From Chiloscyllium plagiosum (lineage: Eukaryota), in assembly GCF_004010195.1 (NCBI RefSeq), contig NC_057713.1:84602350-84666349 (forward strand): a stretch of 64,000 nt of DNA. The letters run 5' to 3'. The position numbers were made by a program, and so were the translations under genes. Numbering within the stretch: the first letter of the stretch is position 1; each line of letters begins with the position of its first letter. Below are positions 11,350-61,537 of the stretch, one piece after another. Below the pieces are notes generated by a model. It did no database searches and had not been told where the DNA came from. It saw only the letters and a program-made list of their open reading frames with translations.

Positions 11350-11564
11350 GAAGTGAGGACTGCAGATGCTGGAGATCAGAGTCAAGAGTGTGGTGCTGGA
11401 AAAGTACAGCAGGTCAGGCAGCATCCAAAGAACAGGAGAATCGACGTTTCGGGCATAAACCCTTCAGGAATCGTGATGATGGGCTTATGTCCGAAACATC
11501 GATTCTCCAGCTCCTTGGATGCTGCCTGACCTGCTGTGCTTTTCCAGCACCACATTCTTGACTC
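11350..11564. mobile_element. Fold-back short PLE-derived element with decayed hammerhead motifs
   Basis: Inverted arms ~11379-11465 and ~11478-11564; same family as 21405, 57934 and 58837. Confidence 0.85.
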
Positions 11565-11949
11565 ATGAGTGTGTGTAGCAGATGCTTCTCCAACTGGTTG
11601 TGGTTTAACCTGAGTGTCACTACGCATCATGTAAGGAGAGAAGCTGAGAAGTAGGAACCATCATAGAAACCTCACCCTGAGTAGGAATTGATGGCATCAC
11701 TCTGCTTCACAAACTACCCATCCGTCCAACTGAGCTAACTGATCCTCTACAATAAGCATCGAAACCAGTGGTGGATTAGATACCATTGCAGGGATTGTAA
11801 CATAATGACAATAATATATGGTTTGAACAAGGGGTATTCAAGAACTCAAATTGTGTTGAGTTCCTTCTGAATTATAGAACAGGTACACTTTGCCATTCTT
11901 GAAATAACTCCTTTGATCCTAACCAGACAATATTCCTCATGAGCGCATG

Positions 11950-12285
11950 CTTTGTTCATTTTTTTCTTGTGAGGTAGGCATCATTGAAACTGCCTGAACT
12001 TGTTGTCCATCTTTTATTTTTCATGATTTGAGAAGCTTTTTAGTCCTTTTCAGAAGATGTTTAGGCAACATGACAATTGATCTGGTGTCATATGTAGGCC
12101 AGATCTTTCCTCAGGATATTATTGAACTAGATGGATTTTTATGACAAACAATGTTGGCTTAATGTCATCATTGTCACTAGTTTTTGACTTCAGACTAATA
12201 ATTTGAATTCACATTCAATCTGTCTCCCCAGGATATTAGTCTTGGTCTGTGAATTACTAACCCAGTGACACTACCAACATGCTAC
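11950..12285 (-). mobile_element. Old tRNA-headed SINE sharing head and tail with the LINE at 38500-43190
   Basis: Similar to 43000-43190 (head) and 38500-38570 (tail). Confidence 0.55.
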
Positions 12286-12487
12286 TTAAGATTGGAGAAC
12301 CAAGAGTTGTGAACCAGGGAAAGGAAACAGCAGGGAACATAAGAGTAGCATCCAACAGTGAGTTAGTGACAGGTAGTTTATGAAAAACTGAAATTGAATA
12401 TTTTGGCTTAAGTTGAAATCAGATCACCACCGGTTCACATCTAGTTTTGTTTAATTTAAGACCGAGATTTGACAAAGGATGTTAGAT

Positions 12488-12802
12488 CACGGTGGCACAG
12501 TGGTTAGCACTGCTGCCTCACAGCGCCAGAGACCCGTGTTCAATTTCCGCCTCAGGCAACTGTCTGTGTGGAGTTTGCACATTCTCTCCATGTCTGCGTG
12601 GGTTTCCTCTGGGTGCTCCGGTTTACTCCCACAGTCCAAAAATGTGTAGGTTAGGTGAATTGGCCATGCTAAATTGCCCGTAGTGTTAGGTGAAGGGGTA
12701 AATGTAGGGGAATGGGTCTGGGTGGGTTGCTCTTCGGAGGGTCGGTGTGGACTTGTTGGGCTGAAGGGCCTGTTTCCACACTGTAAGTAATCTAATCTAA
12801 TC
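12488..12802 (+). mobile_element. HE1-like V-SINE, young and near full length
   Basis: A/B boxes (tggcacagtgg, gttcaatttcc), V-domain, CR1-like tail and (taatc)n end. Confidence 0.92.
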
Positions 12803-13467: not shown

Positions 13468-13516
13468 ACAACAGAACCTATCACTTCCAAGCAGACGATG
13501 AACAGGAATGTCTAGT
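13468..13516 (+). CDS. ASAP1: ASAP1 exon (PH domain): (H)NRTYHFQADDEQECL(V)
   Basis: Pyrimidine tract plus acag acceptor, gtaagt donor; 49 nt; phase-compatible with both neighbours. Confidence 0.95.
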
Positions 13517-14094: not shown

Positions 14095-14255
14095 TTGTTG
14101 TGGTTCTGTTCGCCGAGCTGGGAATTTGTGTTGCAGACGTTTCGTCCCCTGTCTAGGTGACATCCTCAGTGCTTGGGAGCCTCCTGTGAAGTGCTTCTGT
14201 GATGTTTCCTCCAGCATTTATAGTGGTATAAATGTTGTGTATAGTGGTATAAACA
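14095..14255 (-). mobile_element. Short Penelope pLTR fragment, 10-bp TSD ttttagctat (14086-14095 and 14256-14265)
   Basis: Near-identical to the 3' end of the GIY-YIG element at 47080-47836. Confidence 0.88.
14133..14172 (-). ncRNA. Minimal type-I hammerhead ribozyme motif (GUC site)
   Basis: Minus strand gca-CUGAGGA-U-GUC(A)CCU-AGAC-AGG(G)GAC-GAAAC-GUC-ugc; helix I gca/ugc. Confidence 0.75.
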
Positions 14256-14416
14256 TTTTAGCTATGTTGACTGAGGTCAATTTGTCAGTTGAAAATCAGC
14301 TTCAGTGTCGAAAGAAGTTAGTCTGCTGGAACTACATCTTTGTGGATGTGAGATGAGAACCTTAATTACTTTATTTGAGTACTGTTGTACTCATGGATAA
14401 AGGTCACTTTGACAGA

Positions 14417-19720: not shown

Positions 19721-21404
19721 GTAGATGAATATGCAAATCAAAGACTTGTGTGGGAGAAGTGGGTTTTAGTTCATGGCCCACTGACATCAGTGGTTGAGAA
19801 AATGGCAGCTGTGCCATTGGGATAGTCAACACCTAAAGTAAGCTGGTGTCAGTGTTTTGCGGACCACATTGCTGGGGAAGTAGAGAGCGTTTTAAACTAA
19901 ATAAAAGGGGTAAGGTATCAAATGTGGGAAGATGTGCTGTTTTCAAAGAGTAGTGCCACGAACTGTAATATGTGGAGTGAGGGTCAAAGAATGGCAGGAA
20001 GGAATAGAGGGGGGGAAAAAAGAATGTGATGCACCAACAATGAAGATTAGATTAGTCTGATTCTGAAGAAGTGTCATTGTTAAATGTTAACCCTGCATTC
20101 TCGATATGGATGCTGCCAAATCTGTTGAGTTTTTCCTGTAATTTCCAACATCCATAGTTCTTTGATTTATATTAATCAAGACTAGATGTTACAAAGAAAA
20201 CAAAAAGGTAAAACTGAAGGCTCTGTATCTGAATGAGCGTAGCATCCATAACAAACTAGCAAATTGGTAGCAAGCATTGAAGTAAAAAAAAGATCTGATA
20301 GCTATTTCAAAGACATGATTTCAGTATGGCAAGTATTGAAGGTTATGCGACATTCAAAAAAATATAGAACTAGGTAAAGGTGGATGAGTAGTATTGTTAA
20401 TCAGGAATGGCATTTGCCCAATAGTGACAGATAATCTTGATTCAGGAGACCAGGATGAGAGTTGGCTTAGATGTGGAATCAGTTTGAGTGAAGGTGGGAA
20501 ATAATAAGTGAAATGACCCACAGATATTGTAACAGTAACCACAAGAAGAAATATTGGGTGCTTTTGAGGGGATGCCAACAATCTGGTGACTTCAATCTGC
20601 AAATAAAGTGCAAAAATCAGATTGGCAATAGTAGCCTGAAAGACGAGTTCATGAAAAGCTTTTTGAGATAATTTCTTGGAACAACACATCGTAGAACTAA
20701 CCAGTGAGCAAATTATATTAGTTTTGGTGTTGTGTAATGTGACCGAATTAATTAATGATCTCAGAGTTATAGCACCCCTAGGTATCAGCAACCATGGTAT
20801 GTTTGAATTTTGCATCCAGTTTGAAAGGAAGAAGCATTCCACATCCAAATATGGGCTATTTATGAGGGCATGAAAGCTAAACTAGCTGAAATTGGAACAA
20901 GAGGTTAAGGGATAGATCATTAGAGACACCATGGAAGACCTTTTAAGGGGATATTTCAGAATAAGTATACTTAAACTTTAAGTAAAAATTATATCATCCA
21001 TTGTTAATTGAAAATGTTAGAGTAAGTGTTGAACTTAAGGAAAAGGCACACAAACAACAGTGCAAAGTCGACTGGCAGGAGAGATGACTTGTCAAAGAGC
21101 AGCAGTTTAATCGGGGGGAGAAATTGGAATATGAATTTTAAAATGGTTTTAATTTTAAAAAGGAAGAGTTTCTACAGGTATTCTAAAAGGAAAAAAGTAA
21201 GGTAAGTGAGTGGTCCTTGAGTGAATGAGAATGGGAAGTTAATAATAGATGATAAGGAAATGTCTTCACTATAGAGAATACAAAAACAATTCTAGTGATA
21301 GTTGTAAATCGGAAGGGTGATGGTTATTTAGCAAAATTACATTCACGAAGAAGCAAACTAAGGGAGCTTTGTACTGACAAATCTCCAGGTCCAGATGGAT
21401 ATCA

Positions 21405-21626
21405 GGTAGGTAAAAACAATGACTGCAGATGCTGGAAACCAGATTCTGGATTAGTGGTGCTGGAAAAGCACAGCAGTTCAGACAGCATCCGAGGAGCAGT
21501 AAAATCGACATTTCGGGCAAAAGCCCATCATCCCCTGTATTCCTGATGAAGGGCTTTTGCCCGAAACGTCGATTTTACTGCTCCTCGGATGCTGTCTGAA
21601 CTGCTGTGCTTTTCCAGCACCACTAA
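21405..21626. mobile_element. Fold-back short PLE-derived element, 15-bp TSD tccagatggatatca (21390-21404 and 21627-21641)
   Basis: Inverted arms ~21445-21529 and ~21545-21632; inserted into CR1. Confidence 0.9.
21540..21573 (+). ncRNA. Minimal type-I hammerhead ribozyme motif
   Basis: CUGAUGA-A-GGGC-UUUU-GCCC-GAAAC-GUC; helix I is weak (uc/ga). Confidence 0.7.
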
Positions 21627-23193
21627 TCCAGATGGATATCATCCTAGGGTCTAGAAAGAGGTTTGTATTGAGAAAATATATGTTGGTCTTAATTTCACAA
21701 AATTCCCTAAATTCAAGTAAAGTTTCATTGTAGCAAACAGAATCTCTTCAAGAAGGGAGGGAGGCAAAACACTAGAATCTATCAGCTGGTTAGCTTGACA
21801 TCGGCCATGGAAATGGTGTTAGAATCAGTTATTGAAAAAATTATAGCTGCACATTTAGAGAAAATTGGAGTAACTGGGAAAAGTCAGAATGGTTTTTATC
21901 AAAGGGCAGTCTTGTTCGACAAATTCTTTGAAGGAGTAGCATACAATGTGGACAAAGGGGAGCTTGTAGAAGTTATATACTTGGATTTCTAGAAGGCTTT
22001 TGATAAGGTGCTCCACCAAAGTTTAGTGCAGAAAATAAATGCTCATTGTGTAGAGGATAATTTTTAGATGGATAGAAGGTTGGCTAACTGGCAAAAAAAA
22101 ACACAAATTTGTTTAGGTTTAGATATCAATTTTATTGTCGAGTATTATTTATTATCTCTAGTACAGCAATACAGGAGTACAGTGAAAATCATAAAGTTGA
22201 CATTCTCTGGCTCCATCCTAATATACAAAAGACAGGAACAAAAACAGAAGCAAAAGTTAAAGAATCGGCCTGATTGGCAGGATGTAACAACTAGAACAAT
22301 GAATTCACAGCAATGACTTTGTTGAGGGGAGTGAAAGCATGGTAGCTAAATTTGTAGGATCACACCAAACTAAGTAGAAAAGTCTATGAAGAAGAGACAA
22401 GGAAGTTTCAGACATAGGTTGAATGAGTGGGCAAATATTGGAGATGGAGGGTAATACAGGAAAATATGATGTTTTTCACTTTGGCAGGAAGAATGAAAAA
22501 GCAAGCAGTTACTCAGAGTACATATGAAGAAGTCTGAGATGAAGACAGATTTAGATGTTTCGGTGCATGAATCAAAAATGTTAGTATGAAGGTAAAACAT
22601 GTAATCAATAGAACTAATGGGATGCTATCCTTTATTGCGAGAGGAATTGAAAACAAACTTAAATTTATACTGGGCTTTCATGAGACGACATCTCTCATGC
22701 TGTCTGAAATTTGCTATCATTCTTTAAGAATGTAACTGCATTGGAGGCAATTCAGACTCGTAAACTCGTTGATAGAACTGATTGAAGTATGTAAGATTGT
22801 AAATGTTCTTGACAAGTTGAATGCAAAAATAATGTGTTGTCTTGTGGGTCAATCCAGAACTAGGGAGCACTGTTTGAAAATTAGGGGTCCATCCTTTCAG
22901 GGCAGATGAGAATTTTCTTTTAATCTGAGGGTTGAGCCATTGGAACTGTGTGTTAGAAGGCAATGGAGGAGGGATCAAGCTTTCAGCTTGAAAAGAAAAT
23001 CCATTGCTGAAAAAGCTATGGCCATGACCAGATAGGTGAGAGCAAAGCAAGGTGAGCAATTTCTTTTATATTTCTACTTTCAAAGTAACCCTATCTACTT
23101 AATTTGAAAGGTATCTTTTTTTGTGAATAACTATGTGCTCCCTTTGAGTTTTGTCATGCCTTAAGATTTTAAAGTTGTTTCTTTTTTTAACAG

Positions 23194-27451: not shown

Positions 27452-27950
27452 NNNNNNNNNNNNNNNNNNNNNNNNNNNNNNNNNNNNNNNNNNNNNNNNN
27501 NNNNNNNNNNNNNNNNNNNNNNNNNNNNNNNNNNNNNNNNNNNNNNNNNNNNNNNNNNNNNNNNNNNNNNNNNNNNNNNNNNNNNNNNNNNNNNNNNNNN
27601 NNNNNNNNNNNNNNNNNNNNNNNNNNNNNNNNNNNNNNNNNNNNNNNNNNNNNNNNNNNNNNNNNNNNNNNNNNNNNNNNNNNNNNNNNNNNNNNNNNNN
27701 NNNNNNNNNNNNNNNNNNNNNNNNNNNNNNNNNNNNNNNNNNNNNNNNNNNNNNNNNNNNNNNNNNNNNNNNNNNNNNNNNNNNNNNNNNNNNNNNNNNN
27801 NNNNNNNNNNNNNNNNNNNNNNNNNNNNNNNNNNNNNNNNNNNNNNNNNNNNNNNNNNNNNNNNNNNNNNNNNNNNNNNNNNNNNNNNNNNNNNNNNNNN
27901 NNNNNNNNNNNNNNNNNNNNNNNNNNNNNNNNNNNNNNNNNNNNNNNNNN
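27452..27950. other. Assembly gap (about 500 N)
   Basis: Run of N. Confidence 1.
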
Positions 27951-28409
27951 NACCCCAGTCCAACACTGGCATCTCCAAATCAGAACTTTAAATGGGTTTC
28001 TAACAGTTCCGGGGATCTGAAATGTTGAAGCTCTTTCTGAATTCAGTGATTTATGTCTGTGGAATTGGAGGCACAATGCAGTCAATAGCAGAGCACTAAA
28101 TAACAGGCCACAGTTTCAGAATATCTGTGCCGATTTGACACATCAGTTCTTGGTTTACTCCAGCTAGGAATATCCCTGCAGATACTGGCATTGGAATTTG
28201 GTGCCTTGTAAATGGAGGAAGAGTTAATAGTCTTCTTCACCTGATATTATAAAGGCTCTCCAGCAAGAGACATAATAAACAGGCTTGAAGGTAGATTTTC
28301 TGTGACCTTGTTGCTGCTCTGGACTTTTGATTCAGTGGACCCCTAAAGTTGTTAACTCAACCTTCAACTTGTTTGTTAGGTTGAGATTTGAGAGATCCTG
28401 GATGAGCCA

Positions 28410-31364: not shown

Positions 31365-31455
31365 GAGAGAAATTGCAGAATTCAGCAGATCTGATAACAT
31401 CTGTAGAGAGAAAGCAGAGTTAATGTTTCGAGTCTAGTGACCCTTCCTCAGCACT
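31365..31455 (-). mobile_element. Older hammerhead-bearing PLE-derived short element
   Basis: Minus strand CUGAGGA-A-GGGUC-ACUA-GACUC-GAAAC-AUU-aacucug. Confidence 0.6.
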
Positions 31456-33067
31456 GGACTTTGCTGCCTCCTGACCAAATCTAGAGTGCTGGTAAAATCC
31501 TTCAGAAAGGATTATTCAAAGACTGTGGACATATCCACTCAGCTTGTGGAATCCAGTGTCCACTTGTCTCTCTTCGCTTTCAAACATATGTTATTTTGAT
31601 CATAGTTATGTGCATTTTCTTCCTTGTCACTAGTTTTACTTATAAAGCAGTTCTAGTAGTTTCTCTATAGCAACTTAAAAATCAAATATTGGACTCCCAA
31701 CTTAGTACTGGGAAACTGGCTTTCATAAAACTATTCTTAAGTGTGTAGGAAATACTTCCCACCTCTACTACAACATGCCATCCATCAATTCTTGGCCAAG
31801 AGAAGAAACAAACAAAGCAGAAGATGAGCAAGAATAAGAGAAGCAAAATGTAGGAAAAAAATTTAAAATTCTCAGAAATTATATTCACTATGATATACAT
31901 CAGTAGAACTACACAAAATGAGTATGAAAAGATGTGTTTTAACCCCATTTGCTTCCTTGCTTTAGGTACCTCCTCTTCCTGAGTATTCTCTTCTCCTCTC
32001 ATGATCCTGATTAAACATCCTTTGCCTAGCTTTGGGCGTTGCATTTGAAGAGTTAAACTTACTTTTAGCAGTGCACTTTATAGAAGCAGCTTTATGGTTA
32101 ATTGACTTGCATTGTACCCAGCATAAAAATTGGTGGTCTTATTAGATACTACTATGCCACCTCTGCTACCTGGATTTCAATCTAAGCCTAAGTGATGAAA
32201 GAATGGTCCCGTCTGCCTGCTCTAAGGGGTAAGAAGAGATCTAAAAATCTCACATCTGGCATATCCTATTAGTCACAATTTTGTCATATCTGAATGTCAG
32301 GTATACTGATGCTTCAAGTTTAGTTTAAAATGAGAACGTGCTTATCTTTGCAAGCTTTGCAATGTTGAGTTGCACTTAAAAGAATTTAAGGTTTAACAAA
32401 GTTTAAGCAGTTATATTGAATGAAAGACATTGACAAAAGCTCCTTGAAATTTGCCAGCATTGACATTCTTTTGGATGGGAAGAAAGAAAACTTTACAACT
32501 GGCATTAAGTTTAATATTTTATTGGTCACAGTAAATTAAGCTTTCCTCTGTTATACTTCTGAGGCAGGAGTTTTGTTTTTAAATTGGCTAACTGTTTTAA
32601 TGAAGTAGCAAAACAAAAGAATGTCATGGGAATACCATCAATGTTGAAATGTGTTTTTTCTTTAATGCCAACATTCTCCATCAAAGCAATTGAAAACAGA
32701 AAAAGAGCACAAAATGTTCACGCAGTAGCATCCTAGCTCATTGACTTGACTATGAATTTTCAAAAATCTCATTTGTTTTACTAACTTGCAATCGAGTAAG
32801 ACCTTTACTTTAATTCACATTAGTTAATACAAATTGTTGCAACATTGTAAAATATTTACTATATTTAGTAGAAGTTTATAAAAAGTGCCATATAATTAAA
32901 AAGGTTAATAGACTAATTATAAGCATGAGTATATTCAGGTAACACCACCAAATATATAAATTATATATTATATATATAATTAGATGTTCTACTTCTCCTT
33001 TGCATCTTTATTTGCCAGATAACTACGATATGTTTTGCAACAGCATAGTTTGTTGTCTTTTTAACAG

Positions 33068-33254
33068 GACTGCACGTAAAGAATACATACATGCAAAATA
33101 TGTAGATCATAAATTTGCCAAAAGGTTGTGCACCTCTTCCTTAGCTAAAATGAATCAGTTATTGGATTCTGTGAAGTCCAGGGATTTACTTGCACTAATT
33201 CAAGTCTATGCAGAGGGAGTTGAACTAATGGAGTCACTATCAGATCTTGGACAG
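33068..33254 (+). CDS. ASAP1: ASAP1 exon (end of ArfGAP): TARKEYIHAKYVDHKFAKRLC...SRDLLALIQVYAEGVELMESLSDLGQ
   Basis: aacag acceptor, gtgaga donor; 187 nt; visible within ORF 33000..33317. Confidence 0.96.
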
Positions 33255-33819
33255 GTGAGAACTAATAACTATTTTAACTGCCTAAGATTATACTTTACAG
33301 TTCTGTATATGAAGTGAAAATATGACATACAAATGATATGATTTTGATGAATAAACTTAACATTTTTAAAGTTTGACTTTTCACCTGGATTGTCATTTCA
33401 ATCTAAAATCTATCATTACCCCAGAGTGCTTTGTTTGCGAAGGTAAAAGCAAATGGAATATCCCAGTAAGCAAATATGTAGGAAATTGCAAGTCCAGGAA
33501 AACTCCGCAGGCCATATGGCTGGTCGTAAAACGAATATGGTTTACAATTGCACATATACAAATAACGATAGATGAGAAACATGACTTAAATCTTTGGCAT
33601 AGAGATGCAGCGGGAGCAAATAACTGTTAATGGTTCTCAAACCAGACCATGTCAAAGGCTGCATACAGGTCATGAAGGATGACAAGAGAAGTTTATCTTT
33701 GTGACATAATATGTTATTTTTGACTTGGATTATAATTATTTTGTTCAAAGTTTGTGAGAAGATTTGTAGCTCGGGTGCTCGTTGCTGTGATTCTGTTCGC
33801 CGAGCTGGAAGTTTTTGTT

Positions 33820-33859
33820 GCAAACGTTTCGTCCCCTGTCTAGGTGACATCCTCAGTGC
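33820..33859 (-). ncRNA. Minimal type-I hammerhead ribozyme motif (GUU site)
   Basis: gca-CUGAGGA-UGUCACCUAGACAGGGGAC-GAAAC-GUU-ugc on the minus strand. Confidence 0.7.
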
Positions 33860-34298
33860 TTGGGAGCCTCCTGTGAAGCGCTTCTGTGGTGTTTCCTCCG
33901 GCATTTATAGTGGCCTGTCCCTGCCGCTTCCGGTTGTCAGTTTCAGCTGTCCGCTGTAGTGGCCGGTATATTGGGTCCAGGTCGATGTGTTTGTTGATGG
34001 AGTTTGTGGATGAGTGCCATGCTTCTAGGAATTCCCTGGCTGTGGTAATGGTAGTGTTGTCACTACTATAATGGTAGTGTCAACACTACCATTATAGGGC
34101 AAGCCAAACAAAGAACAGCCAGGGAATTCCTAGAAGCATGGCACTCATCCACAAACTCCATCAACAAACACATCGACCTGGACCCAATATACCGGCCACT
34201 ACAGCGGACAGCTGAAACTGACAACTGGAAGCGGCAGGGACAGGCCACTATAAATGCCGGAGGAAACACCACAGAAGTGCTTCACAGGAGGCTCCCAA

Positions 34299-34338
34299 GC
34301 ACTGAGGATGTCACCTAGACAGGGGACGAAACGTTTGC
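34299..34338 (+). ncRNA. Minimal type-I hammerhead ribozyme motif (GUU site)
   Basis: gca-CTGAGGA-TGTCACCTAGACAGGGGAC-GAAAC-GTT-tgc. Confidence 0.7.
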
Positions 34339-36474
34339 AACAAAAACTTCCAGCTCAGCGAACAGAACCACAGCATAGTTATTTTGGTATTGTGGCATGG
34401 GAGGAAACCTGATCGGAGAGATTCAAACATGGAGTTCTATGAAAGGTGTGAAAGCATTTGAGACGCAAGAGAAAAGGGGTGTTGGAAATGGAATGGCTGT
34501 TTGCAAGGATGGAGGTTTCATGGATTTTTCTATTGAGGAATATGGTAATAACAGATGTCAGGGAAAGAGGGACAACAGCTGAAGAGAGAGAACTATTTAC
34601 AATATCAGTTTGGGGAAGTTGGGTGACCAACAGTTTAGTGTAATAGGATTGAGGAAGTGTGATGTGGGTCTAATGGTCAAGTTAAGCAGAGGCATTGAGA
34701 GGGAAAAGGAGAAATACAAGTTCTGAAATAAGACATATAGAATTAGGTTGGCTTTGTAGCGGAGGGGAATGTTAGTGTGTTAACTGTGTGTAATCGCTTT
34801 CTCTCACTAACTGTGTGCCCTGAGTGGCAAAGATGGCAAGAAGAAACTGCCAAGAATGGCAGAACATTTTATTTTAAAAAATGTCCACGTTGCTAAGGTG
34901 AGGCTCATCACCTTTATGGTCCTTTTGTTGATCTTGACTGAGAGACATATCTTGGCCATTAAGTCATGTCATTACTAGTTTACTGACCCAATTATGACTG
35001 ACAAAAATGCTCCAGCAAGCTATGACACAATGTGCCTCAGGGCAAACTCGCTCCATTTAACACAGTTACATTGATCCACACCACTAATATAAAATTAATA
35101 GAGCTAAACTCTGGGGCAAATGAAAAGTGATTTTTTTTCTTTGAAACAGCTAATCAGGTACTGGTCATAACAAAGGACACCTGCAAAATGGATAAATGAT
35201 ACCAGTCCCATAGGTGTCCATGATATGGTTTTCACTGTATCCATATGAATATTTATTATTTTTAGCCATTGTTACTACAGATGCTTAATGATGTTTCACA
35301 GAATAAGTTCCATGAATCCGAAATGTTTTCAGCACAGAGGAGGCCGTTATTCCTATTGTGTCTGTGCTGGCCTATGAAGGACAGGCACAATTATATAATC
35401 ATGCTGGGAGGCTGACAGGCATACTATACTTGGGTATATTTCTCTAATAAAGTGGGAGAAAGTTTACCTAGTGCTACTCCCTTTTCCCCAGAATTCTGTA
35501 AATTTTCAATTTTAAGTAATTTCTCCCTTTCGAAAGCCTCAATTGACCCCACTTCCATGACACACACAGTGTGAAAGCCTCTCAATGACTTGGCCTCCCT
35601 AGACTTCTGCAGCAATGAGTTCCACAGATTCACCTCCCTCTTGCTGACATCTTATTCTTTAATTGTCATACCACAGATAAATTTCACATTGTCAGAACGA
35701 CATAATAATACTTTTGAAGCAGCATGATCAAATTTACCCATCTCATTGACTTCTAAATCTAAGTTAGCCTTGTTATAAACTTTACTGGTTGAGGCCTCTT
35801 TATTGAAAAGTTCGGAGTTGTTGATCATTTTTCCAGCTATTTCAGTTTGCCTGTCTGGAGACTTGACAAGTACATTTTTATCCCTGCAAGTCCCAGACTA
35901 ATGTAACTTAAGCATATGTTGTGGTTAAATTGCAGCAAGTATTGCTACCATTTTTGAGAGTTTCAGGAAGTAAGTGAAGTACTTGTTGTTCAGGAACTAA
36001 TAAAATAGAAAATTGCCTCTCCACTCCTCTTCCCTACCATAATTATGTTTCACTTGTTCACTGCTTGCTTTGCCCTTCTTTGGAGCATTACAACTCTTTT
36101 TGGCTTTCTCCTGGTCCGTTATATCCTGATCCTTTATGAACTGAATCTTAAGTCCACGTATTATTTCTTGTTTTCTGGGTCCTCTATAATTTCCAAAGTT
36201 TCCAGACATAATCCTTGTAGGTACCTCTGATCTGGTAACGTCTCGGTTATTCAGTCTAGCTTTTGAAATAGGTTGATATTAAAAACGTAGGTGAAATACC
36301 CCAGAAATATAGGTAAAAATGCAGTTTTGCTTTCTCAGTCATTGTCAAGCAGTGTCACCATACTAACATGTTTTATATATATTGGTAGTATCAGAAGTCA
36401 TAATTTTTGGTGATGTGATAAATTGTCATAATTTTTGTACGTGCAGTTAATTCGGTTGTTTATTTAACAAACAG

Positions 36475-42053: not shown

Positions 42054-44225
42054 CCTGTTATATTTTAACCCTCTTGAAATGAATGCTGACATTGCATTTG
42101 CCAGCTGAACCTGCATGCTGAGTAGGGGTTATGCTGGGCATGAGTTTGTCAATTGTATTGGAGTATGATTCCGCTTCTGCTCCTGATACACACTCTTAAG
42201 TTGCTAGATCCATCCAAAGTTTGTCCCATTTAGCATGTGATAGTACCCACAACATGATGTAATGTGTTGTCAGTTTGAATGAGGGACTTCATCTCCACAA
42301 GGACTGTGCAGCCATCATTCTTATTGATACTGTCATGTATCTATGGCAGGCAGCTTGGTGAGGTCAGGTATGCATTTCCCTTTTGTTTTTGGTTCCTTCA
42401 CCACCAACCACAGAACCAGTCTAGCTGCAGTGTCTTTTAGGATCTGACCAGCTCAATTAGTAGTGCTGCTCTTGAGCCAATCTTGGTGGTGGGCTTTGAA
42501 ATCTCCCACCAACAGTACATTCTCCGTCTTTGCCACCCTCCATTTTTCTCCAAGTGTTCTTCAACATGGTGGAACACAGAGTCATCAGCTGAGAGAGGAT
42601 GGTGCATGTTAATAATATGGAGATTTCCTTTTCCATGTTTGATGCCGTGAGATTTTGAGGACTCCCAAAGCAACTTCCTCCCAAAAATATACCACTGTGC
42701 CACCATTTCTACCAGGCCAGTCCTGCCGGTGGGATATATCCTGGGATAATGATGGTCATGTCTGAGACATTGTCTGTTAACTATGATTCTGTGAGTATAT
42801 ATCAGACTGTTGGTTGACTAGCCTGTGGACAGTTCTCCTAACTTTGGCACTGAACCCCAGATGTTAGTAAGGAGGACTTTGTAGGGTCAGCAGGGTTGTT
42901 TATACATTTTCGATTCCAATGCCGAGATTGATGCCCGGTGATGGGTCCAATTTCATTTCTTTGAGACTTATAATGACTGTGTGGCTTGCTAGGCCATACA
43001 GCAGTTGAAAGTGAACCACATTGCTGTGGGTCTAGATTCTTTTTTGACAACCTGCAGTGGCTTCATTGTCATTAGTGAACTTTTAATCACAGATATATTT
43101 TGAATTCAAATTCCACCACGTACTGTGGCATGATTCAAACCTGGTTCTACAGAACATCATCTGAGTTCCTCAGTTAATAGTCTAATGAGGATTCTCATGT
43201 TCTTGCTTTGCTTCCAGGACTGGTTGCCTTACAAGGATGGTTGCAATACATTTACGAATGTGCACTAATATTTGTAGTGATGTGTCAGCTGATTAGCATT
43301 TTTATTTGGTTTCCCTCCCGCTACGTGCACAATGAAGTGTAACATATGGCTGGCATCTGTGTGGCTGCGGCTTTTGATCAGCTACGTACCCAGACTTTTA
43401 AAAATCCAGGAAGTCCTGGCCATGATAGGTTCTTCCACCTCTAGCAGGAGGGATGATGTGTGGGATGCCATTGAGACATGGTGCATAATTAATGAAGTAA
43501 TTTCTGGTAAAGTTCACCCCCAGTTTCTTCAACCATTCCGAAATTCTGAAGTTATATTTTCCTATATCCTGAGGTTACTGTACACTTTTTTTCTCATTCC
43601 AACTAATTAAGGATGTTATATGCTGCTCTCCATCTTACACTCTACTAAGGACAAAAAAAGCCACAGGTCCTGAAGAACGGTTACACCTGAAATGTCAACT
43701 CGGGGGGGCACCTGATGTTGCCTAGCTTGCTGTGGTCTTCTAGCCTTCTGCCTACCTACTCCATTTTACACTTAATTAAAAATTGTCAGTGGATTTCACA
43801 TGACTTTGCTATATCTGGTCCCTATTATGTTTCGCACAAATATTCAAGTAGAGTGTACTAAGATCCAATAGATATGTATTGTTGATATGTAGTGGTGGTG
43901 AGTAAACTGTTCTTAATCATACTCAGTTGAGGAGGTTTCCTGTCGAAATTACTAAGTTTAAGAATATGTCTGTCCAGAATAGTGAGGTTATACTTCACTA
44001 TTAAAAATTTCAATGTTGAACAGTTCTGGGTGTAGGGCCCTTGAGCATTCCATCAGAGATGATGTATAGTGAGAGATTGTAAGAGAGAAAGGAAACTGTA
44101 TCCCCATGGCATTTATTCACTCTGAAAAGTGAACAATAGAATTATGATATATCAATATATATCATATTCATATAAGAAATCTAAATTTATGTTGGTATTT
44201 TCTTATCATTTATATTCATATATAG

Positions 44226-44341: not shown

Positions 44342-45795
44342 GTGAGTGTAATGTCAGTGATTTTGAATTGCATTTTCCTTTTGCCCTAGACTTCCAGCAG
44401 ATCCTAGGAAATTACACTTCCTGTTCTAGTATTCAATATTCAGCTCAAGCAGTGTAGCAAAATGTTTGCAAAATCAAAGCTACTCGATCAACAGAAATTG
44501 CTGTAAAGACTCGGCAGGTTTGGCAGCATTTGTGGAGACAAAGCAGAGTTAATGTTTTGACCCTTTTTCATTGTATAATTTCTATTTCTATTCTTGTTTC
44601 TGATTTCCAACTTCAGCAGTTCTTCTCTTTTCCTTTGCAAAGCTATTCAGTGTCCATTCTAGCCTTATTACAGTATTATTAGCAACAAATTACAAAACCA
44701 AATATGAAATATAATTTAGATCAGTTAAAAAATTTAAATTAATTTCTAAACTGTCCGTTTCATTTTATACATTCACTCTACTAGCTCCTATTCTCTTTGC
44801 CATCCTAAAATAAATTCAAAATCTCCTATTTATCTTCATTCATTAACTGGTTATCAGTATCCATTTTGCAAAGTGAACAAATTGAATTAAGAATACTTTA
44901 ATCAGTCTGTAAGAACCATGAAAACCACCATTTTCAACCAACTGAAAGTCCACATGCTGCAAATTGACAAATTGGTAGCTCCTGTGAGTTTATATTACCC
45001 AAATTGGTATGATTGAGTTAAAACAACTGAAAATTTTAGAAAGTATACTTTAAGGGAAATAAGTACTTCTGATTGTACAGAGCCAATTTCTTAAAATAGT
45101 CAAGAAAAAGATTGGTTTGGACACACAACCAAAGACTAAGGACTGGTGAAGGAGGAGAGAAAGAAAATCACAAGAGGGGAGGGATGAGATATGAGATCAC
45201 AATCCAGATTAAATATATATGGAAGCTTCAAATTGGGAATCATTGATATAAATGTACATTTAAAAATGCTTCCACAAATTTCATTTTATCAGTACACTAT
45301 CCTGATGCTTGATACCACCATGCTGGCTAAGCTGGAGGCAGACCTTAAAGGACTATAGACAAGTAGACAACAACCACCACGAATGTGGGGAATTCAGAAA
45401 TTAGTAAAAAATAGTGAATTGATGAAGTCATGCATGATCTCAGTATATGATCGGAAGTCCAGGGCCCTTAAGGAGCAGTGGTAGTATCCCTACCTCTGAG
45501 CCAGAATACTGGGGTCAAGTCCCAACCACTCCAGAAGTGCCTTATAACATGAGGAAACACGTTTTTTGAAAAATGTCTATAAATAGAAGTCCACAAGTGA
45601 GCATTTTTAGTGGATCATCTAAAAAGATTTATTATGCTTTTGCTCAGAGTATCATTGAAACAAAAAAATGTATTTCTATAATCTAGCCCAAAAGCTATAT
45701 CAGAAAATTGCTTTCTAGTGTGAGAAAAATTGATTGACTTGCATTTTTCGTTTTGCTGTCTTATGTATTGTGCATTGGATTTATTTCACTTATAG

Positions 45796-47079: not shown

Positions 47080-47836
47080 ACACCTGTACAAGGTATTCGC
47101 CAAAAATGGATACCCGCGTAATTTCATCAACAGATGCCTAAGAGAAAGACAATGGAACGAGGACATGCCGCAACCCAAAGGACTAGCCACACTACCATAC
47201 AGCAGGAGCATTTCAGAACTGACAGCCAGACTACTACGACCACTAGGACTTATAACAGCACACAAACCAACAGCCACCCTCAGACAACAACTCACCAGAA
47301 CGAAGGACCCGATATCCAGCATGAGCAAAACTAATGTAGTGTACAAAATCCCATGCAAGGACTGCACAAAACACTATATAGGACAAACAGGAAGACAGCT
47401 AACGATCCGCATCTATGAACATCAACTAGCCACGAAACGACACAACCAGCTATCCTTAGTAGCCACACACGCAGACGACAAGCAACATGAATTTGACTGG
47501 GACAACACTACCATTATAGGGCAAGCCAAACAAAGAACAGCCAGGGAATTCCTAGAAGCATGGCACTCATCCACAAACTCCATCAACAAACACATAGACC
47601 TGGACCCAATATACCGGCCACTACAGCGGACAGCTGAAACTGACAACCGGAAGCGGCAGGGACAGGCCACTATAAATGCCGGAGGAAACACCACAGAAGC
47701 GCTTCACAGGAGGCTCCCAAGCACTGAGGATGTCACCTAGACAGGGGACGAAACGTTTGCAACAAAAATTTCCAGCTCAGCGAACAGAACCACAACAACG
47801 AGCACCCGAGCTACAAATCTTCTCCCAAACTTTGAA
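47080..47836 (+). mobile_element. 5'-truncated Penelope-like retroelement: RT C-terminus, GIY-YIG endonuclease and pLTR; 15-bp TSD tgaatatctttgtca
   Basis: ORF with KNGYP..FI, NVVYKIPCKDC..HYIGQTGR..RIYEH and REFLEAW; TSD at 47065-47079 and 47833-47847. Confidence 0.95.
47721..47760 (+). ncRNA. Minimal type-I hammerhead ribozyme motif overlapping the PLE stop codon
   Basis: gca-CTGAGGA-TGTCACCTAGACAGGGGAC-GAAAC-GTT-tgc; the ORF stop TAG (47738-47740) lies in helix II and its loop. Confidence 0.75.
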
Positions 47837-49118: not shown

Positions 49119-49226
49119 ATCAGTCAAGCTGCTTTAGGAAAAGTTAATCCTCATGTTCATGTAGAATATGAGTGGCAATTACGGCAAGAAGAAATTGATG
49201 AAAGTGATGATGACTTGGATGTAAAG
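49119..49226 (+). CDS. ASAP1: ASAP1 exon: ISQAALGKVNPHVHVEYEWQLRQEEIDESDDDLDVK
   Basis: tttcag acceptor, gtgaga donor; 108 nt; NPHVHVEYEW and acidic ESDDDLD motifs typical of ASAP proteins. Confidence 0.96.
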
Positions 49227-51960: not shown

Positions 51961-51967
51961 TTTTAAG

Positions 51968-52290
51968 GTAGTATGGTGGCACAATGGTTAGTACTGCTGT
52001 CTCACAGCCCAGGGACCCGGATTGATTCCAGCCTCGGAATCTCCAGCTTCTTTCTCAGACTTTAAGATTGCATGTTCTCCTTGTTATTTCATGGGTTTCA
52101 GCCAGATGCTCTCACAGTTCAAAGATGTACAGGCTAGGTAGATTAGCAATGCTAGCTTGCCCCATACTGTCCAGGGATGTGCAGTCTAGGTGGATTAGCC
52201 ATGGTAAATACAGGTTATTGGGATAGTGGGAGTGAGTCTGTGTAGGATGCTCTTCAAAGTGTCAGTGCAGGCTTGATGAGCTGAATGGCT
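51968..52290 (+). mobile_element. HE1-like V-SINE, diverged
   Basis: tggtggcacaatggttagtactgctgtctcacag head. Confidence 0.8.
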
Positions 52291-53177: not shown

Positions 53178-53403
53178 ACAAGTCCTGTAAAAAAAGAGCG
53201 TTCTCCAAGGCCACAGAGCTGCTGCCACTCTTCTAGTCTCTCCCCACAAGATAAACTTATGATTCCTGGACTTGGCATAGCACGGGAAAAACAGCGACTG
53301 TCTTATGGGGCGTTTAGTAATCAAATATATGGAGGTGGAACGGATTCTCCAACATCACCAGCCACTGATGCCCCTCCTCTTCCTCCTAGGAATCCAAGCA
53401 AAG
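53178..53403 (+). CDS. ASAP1: ASAP1 exon (Pro-rich): TSPVKKERSPRPQSCCHSSSLSPQDK...QRLSYGAFSNQIY...DAPPLPPRNPSK
   Basis: cattag acceptor, gttagt donor; 226 nt; ASAP1-type RSPRPQS, RLSYGAF and PPLPPRN (SH3 ligand) motifs. Confidence 0.95.
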
Positions 53404-56400: not shown

Positions 56401-57933
56401 TTGTAATTCCCTTCTTGCAATTTTGTTCATCACAAAGATAGCCACTCTGTTAACGTTTGATCTCATATAAAATACTCCGTTTGCCAGTATACAAACACAC
56501 GTGGCAATCTTCCCAAGAATACTATACAAAGATTTAGGTGTTTTAAAATTAGTTTTAGCTTTCCATTTATGATACTGTTGTCTGAAATTGAAATGAAAGG
56601 TTATATAAAGCATATATGGAATTTTTATACAGTACTTATTTTTTATTTTAAAGAACAAAGAAAATTTACAGCCCAGAACAGGCCCTTTGGCCCTCCAAGC
56701 CTGAGCCGATTCAAATCCACCATCTAAAGCTGTCGCCCAATTCCTAAGGATCTGTGTCCCTCTGCTCCCCACCTACTCCTGCATCTGTGCAGACAGAACC
56801 TAAATGAATCTACCGTGCCTGCCTCTACTACCTCTGCTAGCAACGCATTCCAGGCACCAACCACTTTCTGTGTAAAGTACTTTCCGCATGTATCCCCCTT
56901 AAACTTTTCACCTCTCGCCTTGAACACATGACCTCTCGTTATTGAATGCCTCACCCTGGGAAAAAGCTTACTTCTATCTATCCTATCTATATCCTTCATG
57001 ATTTTGAAGACTTCAATCAGGTCCCCCCTCAATCTTCTTTTTTCTAATTAAAACAATCCTAACCTACTCAACCACTCTTCATATCTAGCACCTTCTATAC
57101 CAGGCAACATTCTCGTAAACCTTCTCTGCACCCTCTCCAAAGCATCCACATCCTTTTGGTAATGTGGTGACCAGAACTATACACGGTAGTCTAAATGCGG
57201 CCGAACCAAAGTATTGTACAATTTTAACATGACCTGCCAACTCTTGGACTCAATACCCTGTCTGATAAAGGCAAGCATACCATATACCTCCTTGACCACT
57301 CTAACCACCTGTGCAGCCACCTTCAGGCTACAATGGACCTGAACTCCCAGATTTCTCTGCTCATCGACTTTTCCCAAGGCTCTTCCGTTTATAGTATAGT
57401 TCGCTCTAGAATTAGAGTTCCCAAAATGCATCCCCTCACATTTGCCTGGATTGAACTTCACTGCCACTTCTCTGCCCAACTGTCCAGTCTATCTATATTC
57501 TCCTGTATTCTTTGACAGTCCCCTATGCTTTCTACTACTTCACCAATCTTTGTGTCATCTGCAAACTTACTGAACAGACCAACAAAGCCCTCTTCCAGTT
57601 AATTTATGTATATTACAAACAAGAGTGGCCCCAGCCCCGATCCCTGTGGAACACCACTGGTCACCTTTCCCCATTTCGAGAACCTCCCTTCAACCACTAC
57701 TCTCTGTCAGCTGTTGCTCGTCCAGTTCTTTATCCATCTAGCTAGAACACCTTGACACCATAAGACTTCACTTTCTTCATTAGTTTACCATGGGGAACCT
57801 TATTAAATGCCTTAATAAAGTCCATGTTTATGACACCTACAGCCCTTCCTTCATCTATCAACTTGGTCAGTTTCTCAAAGGACTCTATTTGGTAAGGCTT
57901 GATCTCCCCCGTACAAAACCTATCACTGATAAG

Positions 57934-58073
57934 GCAACATCCCTCCTTATTCCTGAAGAAGGGCTTATGCCTGAAACGTCGAATCTCCTGTTCCTTGGAT
58001 GCTGCCTGACCTGCTGCGCTTTACCAGCAACACATTTTCAGCTCTGATCTCCAGCATCTGCAGCCCTCACTTT
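57934..58073 (+). mobile_element. Single-arm short PLE-derived element, 14-bp TSD ctatcactgataag
   Basis: TSD at 57920-57933 and 58074-58087; inserted in CR1. Confidence 0.9.
57949..57984 (+). ncRNA. Minimal type-I hammerhead ribozyme motif
   Basis: auuc-CUGAAGA-A-GGGC-UUAU-GCCU-GAAAC-GUC-gaau; helix I auuc/gaau. Confidence 0.75.
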
Positions 58074-58836
58074 CTATCACTGATAAGCCCAATCTTTTCC
58101 AAATATAAGTAGATTTTATCCCTCAGTATCCCTTTTTTCCAGCAACTGACATCAGGCTTACTGGTCTGTAGTTACCTGGAATTTCCCTACTACTCTTCTT
58201 GTACAGGGGGACAACATTAGCAACCTTCCATCCTCTGGCACCTCACCTGTGTTTAAGGATGCTACAAAGATATATGTCAGGGTTCCAGCTATATCCTCTC
58301 TCGCCTCCCTCAGCAACCTGGGATAGATCCCATCCAGTCCTGAGGATTTGTCCACCTTAATATCCTTTAGCCTACCCAACACATCTTCCCTCCTTATGTC
58401 AACGTGATCCAGAGCAAGCAAACTTCTATCTCTAATCTCAACATTCATCAAGTCCCTCTCCTCGGTGAATACTGATGCAAAGTAATCATTGAGAATCTCA
58501 CCCATTTTCTCAGGTTTGACACACAACCTTCCTTCCTAATCCTTTAGTGGACCAACCCTTTCTCTAGTTACCCTCTTGCTTCTTATATATGAATAAAAGG
58601 CCTTTGGATTCTCCTTAATTCTGCTCGCTAAAGTTATTTCATGATCCCTTTTAGCCCGCTTGCTTCCTCGTTTAAGATTGGTCCTCTCTCCCGATATTCT
58701 TCTAAGGCCCACTCTGTTCTTAGCTGCCTGAACCTTATGTACGCTTCCCTTTGCCTTTTGGCTAGTAGCACGATTTCTCCTGTCATCCACGGTTCACGAA
58801 TCTTGCCTTTCCTATCCCTTGTTTTCAAAGGGACAT

Positions 58837-59052
58837 CTTCGAGGAGAAAGTGAGGTCTGCAGATGCTGGAGATCAAAGTTGAAACTTTATTGCTGGAACA
58901 GCACAGCAGGTCAGGCAGCATCCAGGGAACAGGAGATTCGACGTTTCGGGCACAGGCCCTTCCTGAAGAAGGGCCTGTGCCCGAAACGTCGAATCTCCTG
59001 TTCCCTGGATGCTGCCTGACCTGCTGTGCTGTTCCAGCAATAAAGTTTCAAC
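58837..59052. mobile_element. Fold-back short PLE-derived element with perfect 88-bp arms, 14-bp TSD tttcaaagggacat
   Basis: Arms 58875-58962 and 58968-59055, loop CTGAA; TSD at 58823-58836 and 59053-59066. Confidence 0.93.
58960..58993 (+). ncRNA. Minimal type-I hammerhead ribozyme motif
   Basis: uuc-CUGAAGA-A-GGGC-CUGU-GCCC-GAAAC-GUC-gaa. Confidence 0.75.
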
Positions 59053-61537
59053 TTTCAAAGGGACATGCCTATCCTGCCGTATATTCAACCGATCTTTGAA
59101 AGACTCCCACATATCAAATGTGCACTTTCCTTCACATAGCTGCTCCCAGTCCACATGTCCCAGCTTCTGCCAAATTTTGATATAATTGGCCCAATTTAGT
59201 ACTCTTCCCTTAAGACCATTTTCATCCCTGTCTACAAGTATTCTAAAACTTACAGAATTGTGATCATTCTTTCCAAAGAAATGCCTCACTGCAACTTCTA
59301 CCAACTTGCCTGGTTCATTCCCCAACACCAGGTCCAATGTAGCCCCTTCCTTTGTCGGACTATTAACATACTGCTCTAGAAAGCTTTCCTGAACATTCCT
59401 TACAAATCCTGCCCCATCCAGACCTCTGACACTAAGTGTATCTCAGTCAATATTGGGAAAATTAAAATCTCCCATCACCATCACCCTGTTGCCTCTACAT
59501 CTTTCCATAATCTGTTTACCTATTTGTTCTTCTACCTCACGCTCACAGTTGAAGGCCTGTAATACAGCCCCAACAATGTAACTGCACCGTTCTTATTTCT
59601 CCGCTCTACCCATAATGCCTCACTGCTCAAGCCCTCTATAGTGCCCTCCTTTAGCACAGCTGTGATATCATACCTGACCAGCAATGGAACTTCTCCCCCC
59701 ACTTTAACTTCCCTCTCTGTCCTGACTGAAGCATCCATATCCTGGAACAGTTAGTTGCCCATCATGCCCTTCCTTCAACTAAGTCTTTGTCATCACAATA
59801 ACGTCATACTCCCAGGCACCAATCCAAGCCCTAAGTTCATCTGCCTTACCCACTATACTCCTTGCATTAAAGTACATGCACTTCAGGCCACAAATTCTTT
59901 TGCATTCATCTGCTCTCTGCCTACTCTTCCTCTTGGTAATGCTAACTTCATGATCCTTAAGGTCTCCACCTCACTGTTCCCAATGCAAATGCACAGTGAA
60001 GTTTCCACCTCACTGTCTACTAGTCTTCACTTCACTTCAGGTTCCCAGCCCCCTGCCACATTAGTATAAACCCTCCCCAACAGCAGTTGCAAAAACTCTC
60101 CCAAGGACATTCGTTCCAGTCTGGTTCAGGTGTAGACCATCCATTTTGTTGGCTCCTCCTCTTTAACTTCTCTCCTAGCTCCCAGAATTCTGCTTTCAGG
60201 ACCTAATCTTGTTTTTTTTACTTATACCATTGGTGCCTATATGCTCCACGATAACTGGCTGTTCACCCTCCCCTTTCAGAATGCAGTGCAGACGGTCGGT
60301 GACATCCGTGACCCGAGCACCTGAGAGGCAACATACCATCTGGGAATCTCATTTTCAGCCACAGAACCGCCTATCTACTCCCCTTACAATAGAATCTCCT
60401 GTGACTATGGCCCAATTAGTCTTTTTCCTGCCCTTCTGAACAGCAGTGCCCACCATGGTGCCACGATCCTGGTAGCTGCTGCCCTCCCCTGGTGAGCCAT
60501 CTCCCCGAACAGTATCCAAAACGGTATACCTGTCTTGGAAGGGGAATGACCGCAGGGGACACCTGCACTGCCTTCCTACTCTTTCTCTGCCTTTTGGTCA
60601 CCCATTCACTCTCTCCTTCAACAATTCTAATCTGCGGTGTGACCAATTCACTAAACGTGCTACTCACGACCTCCTCAGCATCGCAGATGCTCCACAGAGA
60701 GTCCATCCACAGCCCAGAGCCATCATATGGTCAAACAAGAGCTGCAGCTGGACATATTTCTTGCAAGTGTAAGAGTCAGGAACTTCAGCCATGTCCCTGA
60801 GCTCCCACATCAAGCAAGAGGCACATGCCACCGGTCTGAGGTCCCCTGCCATTGTAAGCCTTAGCTTTATATCAACTAACTAAAACCAAACAATGCATTT
60901 AAAAATATGAAAGAAAAGAAAAACAGACCTTACCTTAGAGTCCTTTTCTTCTGTTTTTGGTGGGTGGAGGGGAGGGGGGTTGAAGCAGGAGGGAGATACT
61001 ACACATGTAGTATCTCTGCTTTAACCACTCCCCAAATATACACTAAGTCCTTACCTTCCCTGTAACCTCCTGGTCTGCATCTTCACCTCTGCTCTGTCTC
61101 CCGCTGCTCCCGGACAGGCAACAGGTTGCAGGCTTCAAAGGTAAGTATTTATACTGTTTGCTTATCTTCCTGGAAACTTTCTGGTCCCAAGGTCACCTCC
61201 ACTCTATCTTCCACTGCTCCCTTAGGAAAAAGGATTTATAATGAATTTCCTACTTAAAAATAATTGAAAATAAATGTATGCTGATATTTAGTTACTTCCA
61301 GTAACAGTAACATAGGTACACCACTGGAAGTTAACAAATCCATTGAAACTTGTATTAGTTAAATCAACCAGTTGGTATTTGACAAATGCAAAGGGATCCA
61401 TTGTTAGCCATTTTTCTTAGTTAGTGCTAACAGAGCCACTTTCTTGGGAACCCACACTTTGTATTATGCATTCCTGCAAATTTCACTGCCTTAAACATCC
61501 ACGACAAAAAAAAACGATTGTTGCAGTGCATGAAGTA

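What the first reader, a model, noticed from the sequence alone, without database searches (positions are those of the whole stretch)
11350..59066. Family of short non-autonomous hammerhead-ribozyme retroelements scattered through ASAP1 introns
Seen: a ~125-220 bp non-coding family at 11350, 21405, 57934 and 58837, with older relatives at ~4925, ~20062, 31365, 43670 and ~44490. It starts at or just before CUGA(A/U)GA-A-GGGC-N4-GCCY-GAAAC-GUC. Helix II is preserved while its loop varies (UUUU, UUAU, CUGU), and three copies have 14-15 bp TSDs. Known: Penelope-like elements carry minimal type-I hammerheads in their pLTRs. Inference: these are ribozyme-bearing PLE-mobilised miniature elements that were active in several waves.
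Basis: partly seen in the sequence, partly recalled or inferred. Interest (0 to 1): 0.8.

Follow-up and report, generated by a model that had tools for sequence, protein, structure and literature searches.

The report
Penelope retrotransposon leader-only insertions
These short hammerhead-bearing repeats are not a mini-element family of their own but the first 95-130 bases of an ordinary, very abundant Penelope-type jumping gene, and their fixed start point suggests the element likely begins copying inside the front end of its own RNA and runs off the capped tip, which would explain how this group builds its odd direct and mirror-image ends.

Summary
Real, but not a separate family. The repeat is both the 5' leader and the 3' end of an autonomous EN+ Penelope-like element (RT + GIY-YIG, Neptune-type), about 140 insertions per Mb. 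Short and long copies mix on a tree. The minimal hammerhead is the known PLE motif and its helices covary across lineages, but copies do not begin at its cut site. They begin near A(-4), an initiator-like base about 30 nt below a TATA-like box, where ORF-bearing copies and template-jump joints also begin, often with an extra untemplated G. Best model (0.7): reverse transcription primes at one of two sites inside the 5' leader, runs off the capped RNA end, then stops, jumps, or meets a second-strand copy primed at the other site (33 of 42 palindromes have one tailed and one tailless arm). The scan reported similar inserts on other DNA before.

The parts
11347..11563 (.). Head-to-head palindromic leader insertion: tailed minus arm about 11347-11471, tailless plus arm about 11474-11563; both hammerhead cores damaged; decayed TSD 11332-11346 / 11564-11578
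   Evidence: (I13, 88 nt, 90%)
21405..21632 (.). Head-to-head palindromic leader insertion: tailed minus arm 21405-21532 (core incomplete), tailless plus arm about 21539-21632; TSD 21390-21404 / 21627-21641 (last 6 nt of the arm shared with the TSD)
   Evidence: (I11, 88 nt, 98%)
21539..21574 (+). Minimal type-I hammerhead, core at 21543, predicted cut after 21570
57949..58075 (+). Solo tailed leader copy starting at about A(-4), with about 15 nt of filler (57934-57948); TSD 57920-57933 / 58074-58087; hammerhead core at 57953, predicted cut after 57980
58837..59055 (.). Head-to-head palindromic leader insertion: tailed minus arm 58837-58962, tailless plus arm 58960-59055 (core at 58963, predicted cut after 58990); TSD 58823-58836 / 59053-59066
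   Evidence: (I10, 88 nt, 100%)
31365..31456 (-). Older-lineage leader copy with an intact minimal hammerhead (5-bp helix II)
43666..43750 (+). Older-lineage leader copy; both core boxes present, mismatch at the base of helix II
4923..5005 (+). Decayed older-lineage leader copy; CUGA box lost
20062..20145 (+). Decayed older-lineage leader copy; CUGA box kept, helix II and GAAA lost
44494..44570 (-). Decayed older-lineage leader copy; only the part downstream of helix II remains
33744..34375 (.). Second, unrelated PLE family (Poseidon-like): inverted pair, 261-nt arms, tail on one arm, own hammerhead on each arm
   Evidence: (I2)
47300..47836 (+). Poseidon-like 3' fragment: GIY-YIG C-terminus, TATA box, hammerhead, tail
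14096..14256 (-). Short Poseidon-like copy with hammerhead and a 10-bp TSD
33068..33254 (+). Host gene exon (ArfGAP-ankyrin region of an ASAP-family gene); further exons at 10544-10631 and 53178-53316
   Evidence: ASAP1 assignment is recall

Best explanation
The repeats are short insertions of the hammerhead-bearing leader of an autonomous Neptune-type Penelope-like retrotransposon, likely made when its reverse transcriptase primes inside the front end of the element's own mRNA and runs off the capped 5' tip. Numbering from C3 of the CUGA box = 0: (1, shown) the unit is leader (-4 to about +125), ORF start 30-odd nt later, RT, Zn-finger linker, GIY-YIG, UTR, leader again. (2, inferred) RNA polymerase II starts at A(-4) and caps the RNA. 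(3, established in vitro for an anole PLE, inferred here) the protein nicks both target strands about 14-15 bp apart and primes cDNA internally at one of two sites, here about +88-94 and +122-125; the gap between them is the known 'tail'. (4, inferred) priming in the 5' leader gives a 95- or 130-nt run-off cDNA, like a retroviral strong-stop product, often with an extra base copied from the cap. (5, inferred) it is then joined to the target (solo copy), or jumps to another RNA position (leader-ORF-leader chimeras, and, if it lands on the RNA's 3' end, a seamless pseudo-LTR), or meets the cDNA primed on the other strand at the other site (palindrome with one tail). The hammerhead is carried along as part of the leader, is conserved between master lineages, and does not define the ends of the inserts; the intronic copies are predicted to be inert.
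For: 26 of 30 loci picked by the GIY-YIG sequence have the leader about 100-200 nt downstream, the other 4 hold assembly gaps. 26 of 30 loci picked by the ORF N-terminus have leader sequence directly upstream by blastn, and the remaining 4 show its last bases by eye; 12 of 30 begin at -4 to +10, 3 of 30 carry UTR upstream. RT: RVT_1 E 2.9e-6; 293 longer homologues, best ones 850-950 aa single ORFs with RT and often GIY-YIG; GIY-YIG E 7.5e-4. Unbiased sample, 120 stretches, 1.15 Mb: 202 arms, about 160 insertions. Of 150 arms (leader identity >=85%, not at a gap) 73 start at -10 to +10, 42 reach into the UTR, 29 start after +10, 6 at -25 to -11; break rate per base at -6 to +5 is 13 times that at +11 to +60 (p 3e-28, arms not fully independent) and 11 times that in the UTR; at the cut site (+26 to +30) it equals its neighbours (0.0046 vs 0.0048 and 0.0037). 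17 of 21 joints I picked join a variable ORF position straight to the leader, 12 of the 17 at A(-4) or up to 4 nt above it, several with untemplated filler. Untemplated G vs untemplated A directly before A(-4) in direct leader-to-leader joints: 7 vs 1 among 15 matches, 22 vs 4 among the first 100 of 269 (hand counts). Genome-wide G vs A before the same 29-mer: 3955 vs 1854 against a background G share of 0.41. TATA-like motif starts 34-37 nt above C3 in 31 of 75 family-A cores (about 35 of such cores have UTR upstream), and a canonical TATAAA at 33 in an older lineage and 36-40 in a third family. 3' ends are bimodal; 33 of 42 palindromes pair a tailed with a tailless arm, 1 two tailed, 5 two tailless, 3 other (p 7e-6 for 33 of 39); 28 of 42 have a TSD of 8 bp or more, mode 15. 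A third PLE family shows the same pile-up (27 of 49 at -13 to +10). In reads of a related organism loose ends gather before the base equal to -4 (104 reads) and behind +125/126 (417 reads). In vitro basis: both strands cleaved and extended, two internal start sites, hammerhead cleavage not needed (PMC11167929).
Against: No transcription start was measured: the one RNA run that held reads is poly(A) single-cell data, reads lie on both strands and mostly run into unrelated flanks, and no pile of read starts appeared. A(-4) is also the first base of hammerhead helix I, so structure and promoter are confounded. The pile-up is spread over about 15 nt with mode -3, not one base. The Poseidon-like family shows no pile-up below its TATA box (0 of 16 arms start between -57 and +6), so the pattern is not general. 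Part of the genome-wide G excess can come from inverted-arm remnants at palindrome centres (seen); in the unbiased and N-terminus sets it was only 10 vs 5 (p 0.04). 28% of arms carry UTR, and these could arise by plain priming in the 3' leader of a read-through RNA. Partner arms were the best or tied match in only 7 of 30 pairs, so one shared template molecule is not shown. No intact full-length copy was seen in one piece; the unit is read from overlapping real copies with gaps.
Confidence: 0.7

Rival explanations
1. Ordinary 5' truncation: RT primes in the 3' pseudo-LTR and falls off preferentially at the hammerhead's 5' edge because of RNA structure or bound protein.
For: 5' truncation is typical of PLEs (PMC8557442); A(-4) coincides with helix I; 42 of 150 arms do continue into the UTR.
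Against: ORF-bearing copies start at the same place; ORF-to-leader joints break there; untemplated G excess; TATA-like and initiator-like motifs at promoter spacing; an RT that has unwound the whole motif has little reason to stop at its far edge (inference).
Confidence: 0.15
2. One reading: a distinct non-autonomous mini-element, transcribed and re-mobilised by a PLE in trans.
For: Short copies outnumber long ones; Drosophila Penelope has an internal promoter (PMC2377424), so a copy starting at the start site could be transcribed; non-autonomous PLEs exist (MRC1, PMC8557442).
Against: Short and long copies intermix: 14 changes vs 14.8 shuffled, 158 of 500 shuffles as low, starred branches force at least 10 changes, one identical short/long set (only 124 columns, many forks open). 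No internal deletion or private sequence; palindrome centres differ copy to copy.
Confidence: 0.07
3. For the palindromes only: snap-back self-priming (on an antisense template, as proposed for rotifer PLEs, or of the run-off cDNA) rather than priming on both target strands.
For: Arms overlap by a few bases in many pairs; self-priming is the published reading (PMC3846280 Discussion); arms are usually of the same subfamily.
Against: Both inner ends cluster near -4 with variable spacers or filler, both outer ends fall on the two family-wide 3' positions, and TSDs are kept; dual-strand cleavage and extension is shown in vitro.
Confidence: 0.2
4. Retrozyme-like: hammerhead self-cleavage releases the RNA unit that is retrotransposed.
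For: Conserved core and covarying helices; in direct leader-to-leader joints upstream ends crowd 0-4 nt past the predicted cut (about 40 of the first 100 of 269 rows) and are fewer before it (32 non-array rows of the first 100 of 127).
Against: No excess of 5' ends at the cut; most of those joints keep 2-3 templated bases beyond the cut, and a 5-nt microhomology between G+A(-4)UUC and the helix-I 3' strand can explain them; no tandem arrays of the repeat in the window; helix III is absent, the solo copy folds no better than shuffles (z 0.47) and the palindrome folds into one long hairpin that buries the motif.
Confidence: 0.04

Closest known systems
EN+ Penelope-like elements with direct/inverted pLTRs and a 30-40 bp tail (PMC8557442, PMC3846280, PMC2377424)
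   Same: Single ORF with RT and C-terminal GIY-YIG; pLTR spanning 3' UTR and 5' leader; inverted copy at the 5' end; tail on one end; variable-length TSD; TATA and initiator-like motifs in the pLTR.
   Different: Here the commonest insert is the leader alone with a fixed 5' start. The rotifer paper ascribes solo pLTRs to recombination or deletion and the inversions to self-priming; the Drosophila paper says no mechanism for pLTR regeneration is evident.
Poseidon from Anolis carolinensis (PAc), in vitro mechanism (PMC11167929)
   Same: Hammerhead at the front of the transcript, two internal RT start sites flanking the tail, both DNA strands extended, cleavage not needed.
   Different: In PAc the ORF starts inside the hammerhead; here the leader is non-coding. 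The text I read does not discuss run-off at the RNA 5' end, cap copying or template jumps.
Minimal type-I hammerheads of metazoan PLEs (PMC4209133)
   Same: No helix III, palindromic 15.2-16.2, extra base between 9 and 10.1, G10.1-C11.1, short helix I; mostly single motifs, some in opposite-strand pairs, read as truncated PLEs.
   Different: Helix II is only 4-5 bp in this family; activity untested here.
Non-LTR retrozymes (PMC7229834; bioRxiv 10.64898/2026.07.22.740005)
   Same: Short, non-coding, type-I hammerhead, PLE-related.
   Different: Retrozymes are head-to-tail tandem repeats with two or more hammerheads; these are solo or head-to-head, flanked by TSDs, and contiguous with an autonomous element.
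Minus-strand strong-stop DNA of LTR retroelements (recalled, no call)
   Same: Works like it in the model: short cDNA of the RNA's 5' end, then transfer.
   Different: Primer is nicked target DNA, not tRNA; no integrase, no true LTRs; not a member.

Membership tests
EN+ Penelope-like element | ORF with PLE-type RT and C-terminal GIY-YIG linked to the repeat | tested here: met
   read from overlapping real copies, none intact in one piece
EN+ Penelope-like element | pLTR present at both ends of the unit / partial tandems | tested here: met
   leader upstream of the ORF start and downstream of the UTR; 3 of 30 N-terminus loci are tandems
EN+ Penelope-like element | Inverted copy and 30-40 bp tail on one end | tested here: met
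   42 head-to-head pairs, 33 with one tail
Neptune/Nematis clades | CX2-5CxxC linker motif upstream of GIY-YIG (PMC8557442) | tested here: met
   CX4CxxC at the end of the L244 translation, continued in L024
Neptune clade | RT phylogeny with labelled references | not tested
   no named reference sequences were at hand; Neptune rather than Nematis is inference from vertebrate host
Minimal type-I hammerhead | Invariant core with covarying helices I and II | tested here: met
   15 hand-picked lineage representatives: 82.5% of cells paired, all 8 pairs with double changes, covariation 0.72 vs at most 0.23 when slid; two rows are misaligned by one column; rows are related
Minimal type-I hammerhead | Self-cleavage as dimer or with protein | not testable with these tools
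   no genomic excess of 5' ends at the cut
Non-autonomous PLE derivative family | Own lineage apart from the autonomous copies | tested here: not met
Non-LTR retrozyme | Head-to-tail tandem units each with a complete hammerhead | tested here: not met
   none in the window; direct leader duplications exist genome-wide but are rare (269 matches) and look like one-off joints

The most novel reading that the evidence does not exclude
PLEs replicate by a strong-stop-and-jump route: target-primed cDNA starts inside the 5' leader of a capped mRNA, copies the cap, and jumps to the RNA's 3' end to rebuild the pseudo-LTR, while a protein dimer primes the second strand at the other start site. Hundreds of thousands of shark insertions would be a frozen record of each step, solving how pLTRs, partial tandems, inversions and one-sided tails arise.
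Probability: 0.4. Interest if true: 0.72.

Novelty: new variant of a known kind. Interest (0 to 1): 0.43.

Why it matters
The element, its hammerhead and its inverted/tail layout are known. What could matter is the mechanism: papers on PLEs state that the origin of pseudo-LTRs and tandem/inverted structures is unexplained (PMC2377424, PMC8557442). The fixed start, the extra G and the jump joints give concrete predictions that the existing in vitro system (PMC11167929) can test directly. It also warns annotators that such short hammerhead repeats are pieces of a PLE, not SINE-, MITE- or retrozyme-like families, and at roughly half a million copies (extrapolated from 139 per Mb) they seed many perfect intronic hairpins.

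Tried and rejected
Rfam scan: no hammerhead family hit; only hairpin-type chance matches. Hammerhead cut as the 5' end of copies: rejected. A splice acceptor near the hammerhead as cause of the pile-up: rejected, since joints have variable upstream sequence and lie at -4. One search's first counts (19 of 133 UTR-bearing) were biased against long copies by an identity filter and by dropping self-matches; one search replaces them; the tree used the labels (66 short, 16 long). Arm-versus-arm identity could not tell one template from two. Sequencing runs: no holder on record as RNA was listed; run X20 laid no reads; RNA 3' ends in reads remain unexamined. Pfam did not recognise the short host exons. 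Literature searches that found nothing on the model: Penelope+Neptune+shark+retrotransposon, 0 papers; Penelope-like+strong stop+reverse transcription+retrotransposon, 0; twin priming/non-templated, none on PLE mechanism by listing; solo pLTR/transcription start/cap, only the two papers already read; template jump/partial tandem. The library lacks most subscription papers and Repbase, so 'not in print' is limited to these. The text of the PMC11167929 supplements held no hit; its Fig. S2 (coverage of genomic copies) is an image I could not see and may already show the 5' pile-up.
Full report
Observation. The window lies in a 3.56-Gb genome; that it is a cartilaginous fish is my inference from recall of its repeats. 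The four young copies are present with exact TSDs of 15, 14 and 14 bp and one decayed TSD. Three are head-to-head palindromes with 88-nt arms, one arm about 35 nt longer at its outer end. The hammerhead motif is intact on three + arms, broken on both arms of the 11350 copy, and among five older relatives intact only at 31365. A descriptor found 85 motifs in 1.15 Mb against 0-2 in 5 Markov controls. The host is an ASAP-family gene on the + strand; ASAP1 is recalled.

What it is. Genome copies of the repeat run upstream into a UTR and a GIY-YIG frame; 26 of 30 loci chosen by that frame carry the repeat downstream. Walking further gave an RT whose best longer homologues are 850-950 aa RT proteins, many with GIY-YIG, and a CX4CxxC linker, the mark of Neptune/Nematis in PMC8557442. 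Loci chosen by the ORF N-terminus showed the same repeat directly upstream of the start codon. So the repeat is the 5' leader of the transcript as well as the last part of the 3' pseudo-LTR. In 120 stretches taken at round coordinates (1.15 Mb) there were 202 arms in about 160 insertions. On a tree of 82 leaders, short and UTR-bearing copies are intermixed. There is no separate mini-family.

Where copies start and end. With C3 of the CUGA box as 0, of 150 well-matching arms not at a gap 73 start at -10 to +10, 42 reach into the UTR, 29 start after +10 and 6 at -25 to -11; 34 arms below 85% identity and 17 at gaps or edges were set aside, and including the former changes little. The break rate at -6 to +5 is 13 times that further in and 11 times that in the UTR; at the predicted cut it is ordinary. 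ORF-bearing copies start in the same zone (12 of 30). Of 21 joints I picked, 17 link a variable ORF position directly to the leader, 12 at A(-4) or just above. A(-4) sits in an initiator-like context (consensus recalled), with a TATA-like or canonical TATA motif about 30 nt upstream in three lineages. Directly before it an untemplated G outnumbers an untemplated A by 7 to 1 and 22 to 4 (first 100 of 269 rows, hand counts); genome-wide G:A is 3955:1854, partly inflated by inverted remnants. An extra G from copying the cap is known for other retroelements (recalled). 3' ends fall at about +85-94 or +122-125; 33 of 42 palindromes have one of each, and 28 of 42 keep a TSD. A third family repeats the pattern; a Poseidon-like family does not. 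Reads of a related organism show loose ends at the same positions but no pile of read starts.

Mechanism. PMC11167929 (parts 1-2 of 4 read) shows a PLE protein cutting and extending both strands from two internal RNA sites that bound the tail, without need of hammerhead cleavage. Combined with the above, the simplest account is priming in the 5' leader, run-off at a capped end at -4, then joining, jumping, or meeting the second-strand cDNA. Linkage, positions and counts are shown; start site, cap, jump to the 3' end and two-strand priming are inferred. Stalling at helix I remains the main rival because helix I also begins at -4.

The hammerhead. It fits the minimal motif of PMC4209133 (parts 1-2 of 4 read), which already reports single and opposite-strand motifs as truncated PLEs and low activity. 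Across 15 lineage representatives the core is fixed and both helices covary. In the intronic copies it cannot work alone: no helix III, no stable fold for the solo copy, full sequestration in the palindrome. One unexplained hint: upstream ends of direct leader joints crowd just past the cut, but most keep bases beyond it and microhomology can explain them.

Known and new. Inverted pLTRs, tails, TSDs, TATA/initiator motifs and solo pLTRs are described (PMC8557442 passages; PMC3846280 passages and Discussion; PMC2377424 passages). Retrozymes are tandem (PMC7229834 passages; bioRxiv 2026.07.22.740005 part 1 of 5 and passages). PMC12910113 passages added nothing. I found no paper with a fixed 5' start, cap-like G or leader run-off (limits under Tried and rejected). 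Earlier notes of this scan reached similar readings on other DNA; my reading was stated before that look-up, and they are not independent support.

Verdict. Interest 0.43.

Noticed in passing
window 14096-14256, 33744-34375, 47300-47836: A second, Poseidon-like PLE family with its own hammerhead and TATA box, including a 261-bp-arm inverted pair; its copies do not pile up at a fixed 5' start (16 arms).
   Followed up: partly
L195:8918-9110, L179:8142-8300, L116:2480-2650: A third hammerhead-bearing family with the same short solo/palindrome layout (60 arms, 18 pairs in 1.15 Mb) and a canonical TATA box; its ORF was not traced.
   Followed up: partly
G000, 15 loci among the first 100 rows (e.g. 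C1:88730047, C24:642443): A 28-bp tandem array covering about -17 to +11 of the leader recurs at many loci: one variant master that propagated the array.
   Followed up: no
G000, rows: Upstream ends of direct leader-to-leader joints crowd 0-4 nt past the predicted hammerhead cut; cleavage or microhomology not resolved.
   Followed up: partly
L251, L258, L274, L277 joints: A- or T-rich untemplated runs at ORF-to-leader joints, possibly tails of prematurely ended RNAs that served as jump acceptors.
   Followed up: no
leader +100 to +128: The tail end resembles a branch point, pyrimidine tract and AG acceptor in some subfamilies; no donor or spliced form was looked for.
   Followed up: no
window 27452-27951: 500-base assembly gap; many long copies of the element elsewhere are also broken by gaps, so long and inverted copies are probably undercounted.
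   Followed up: no
window 889-1082, 12482-12742, 41655-42054, 51966-52214, 61537-61797: Another abundant repeat family (SINE-like by recall) unrelated to the finding.
   Followed up: no
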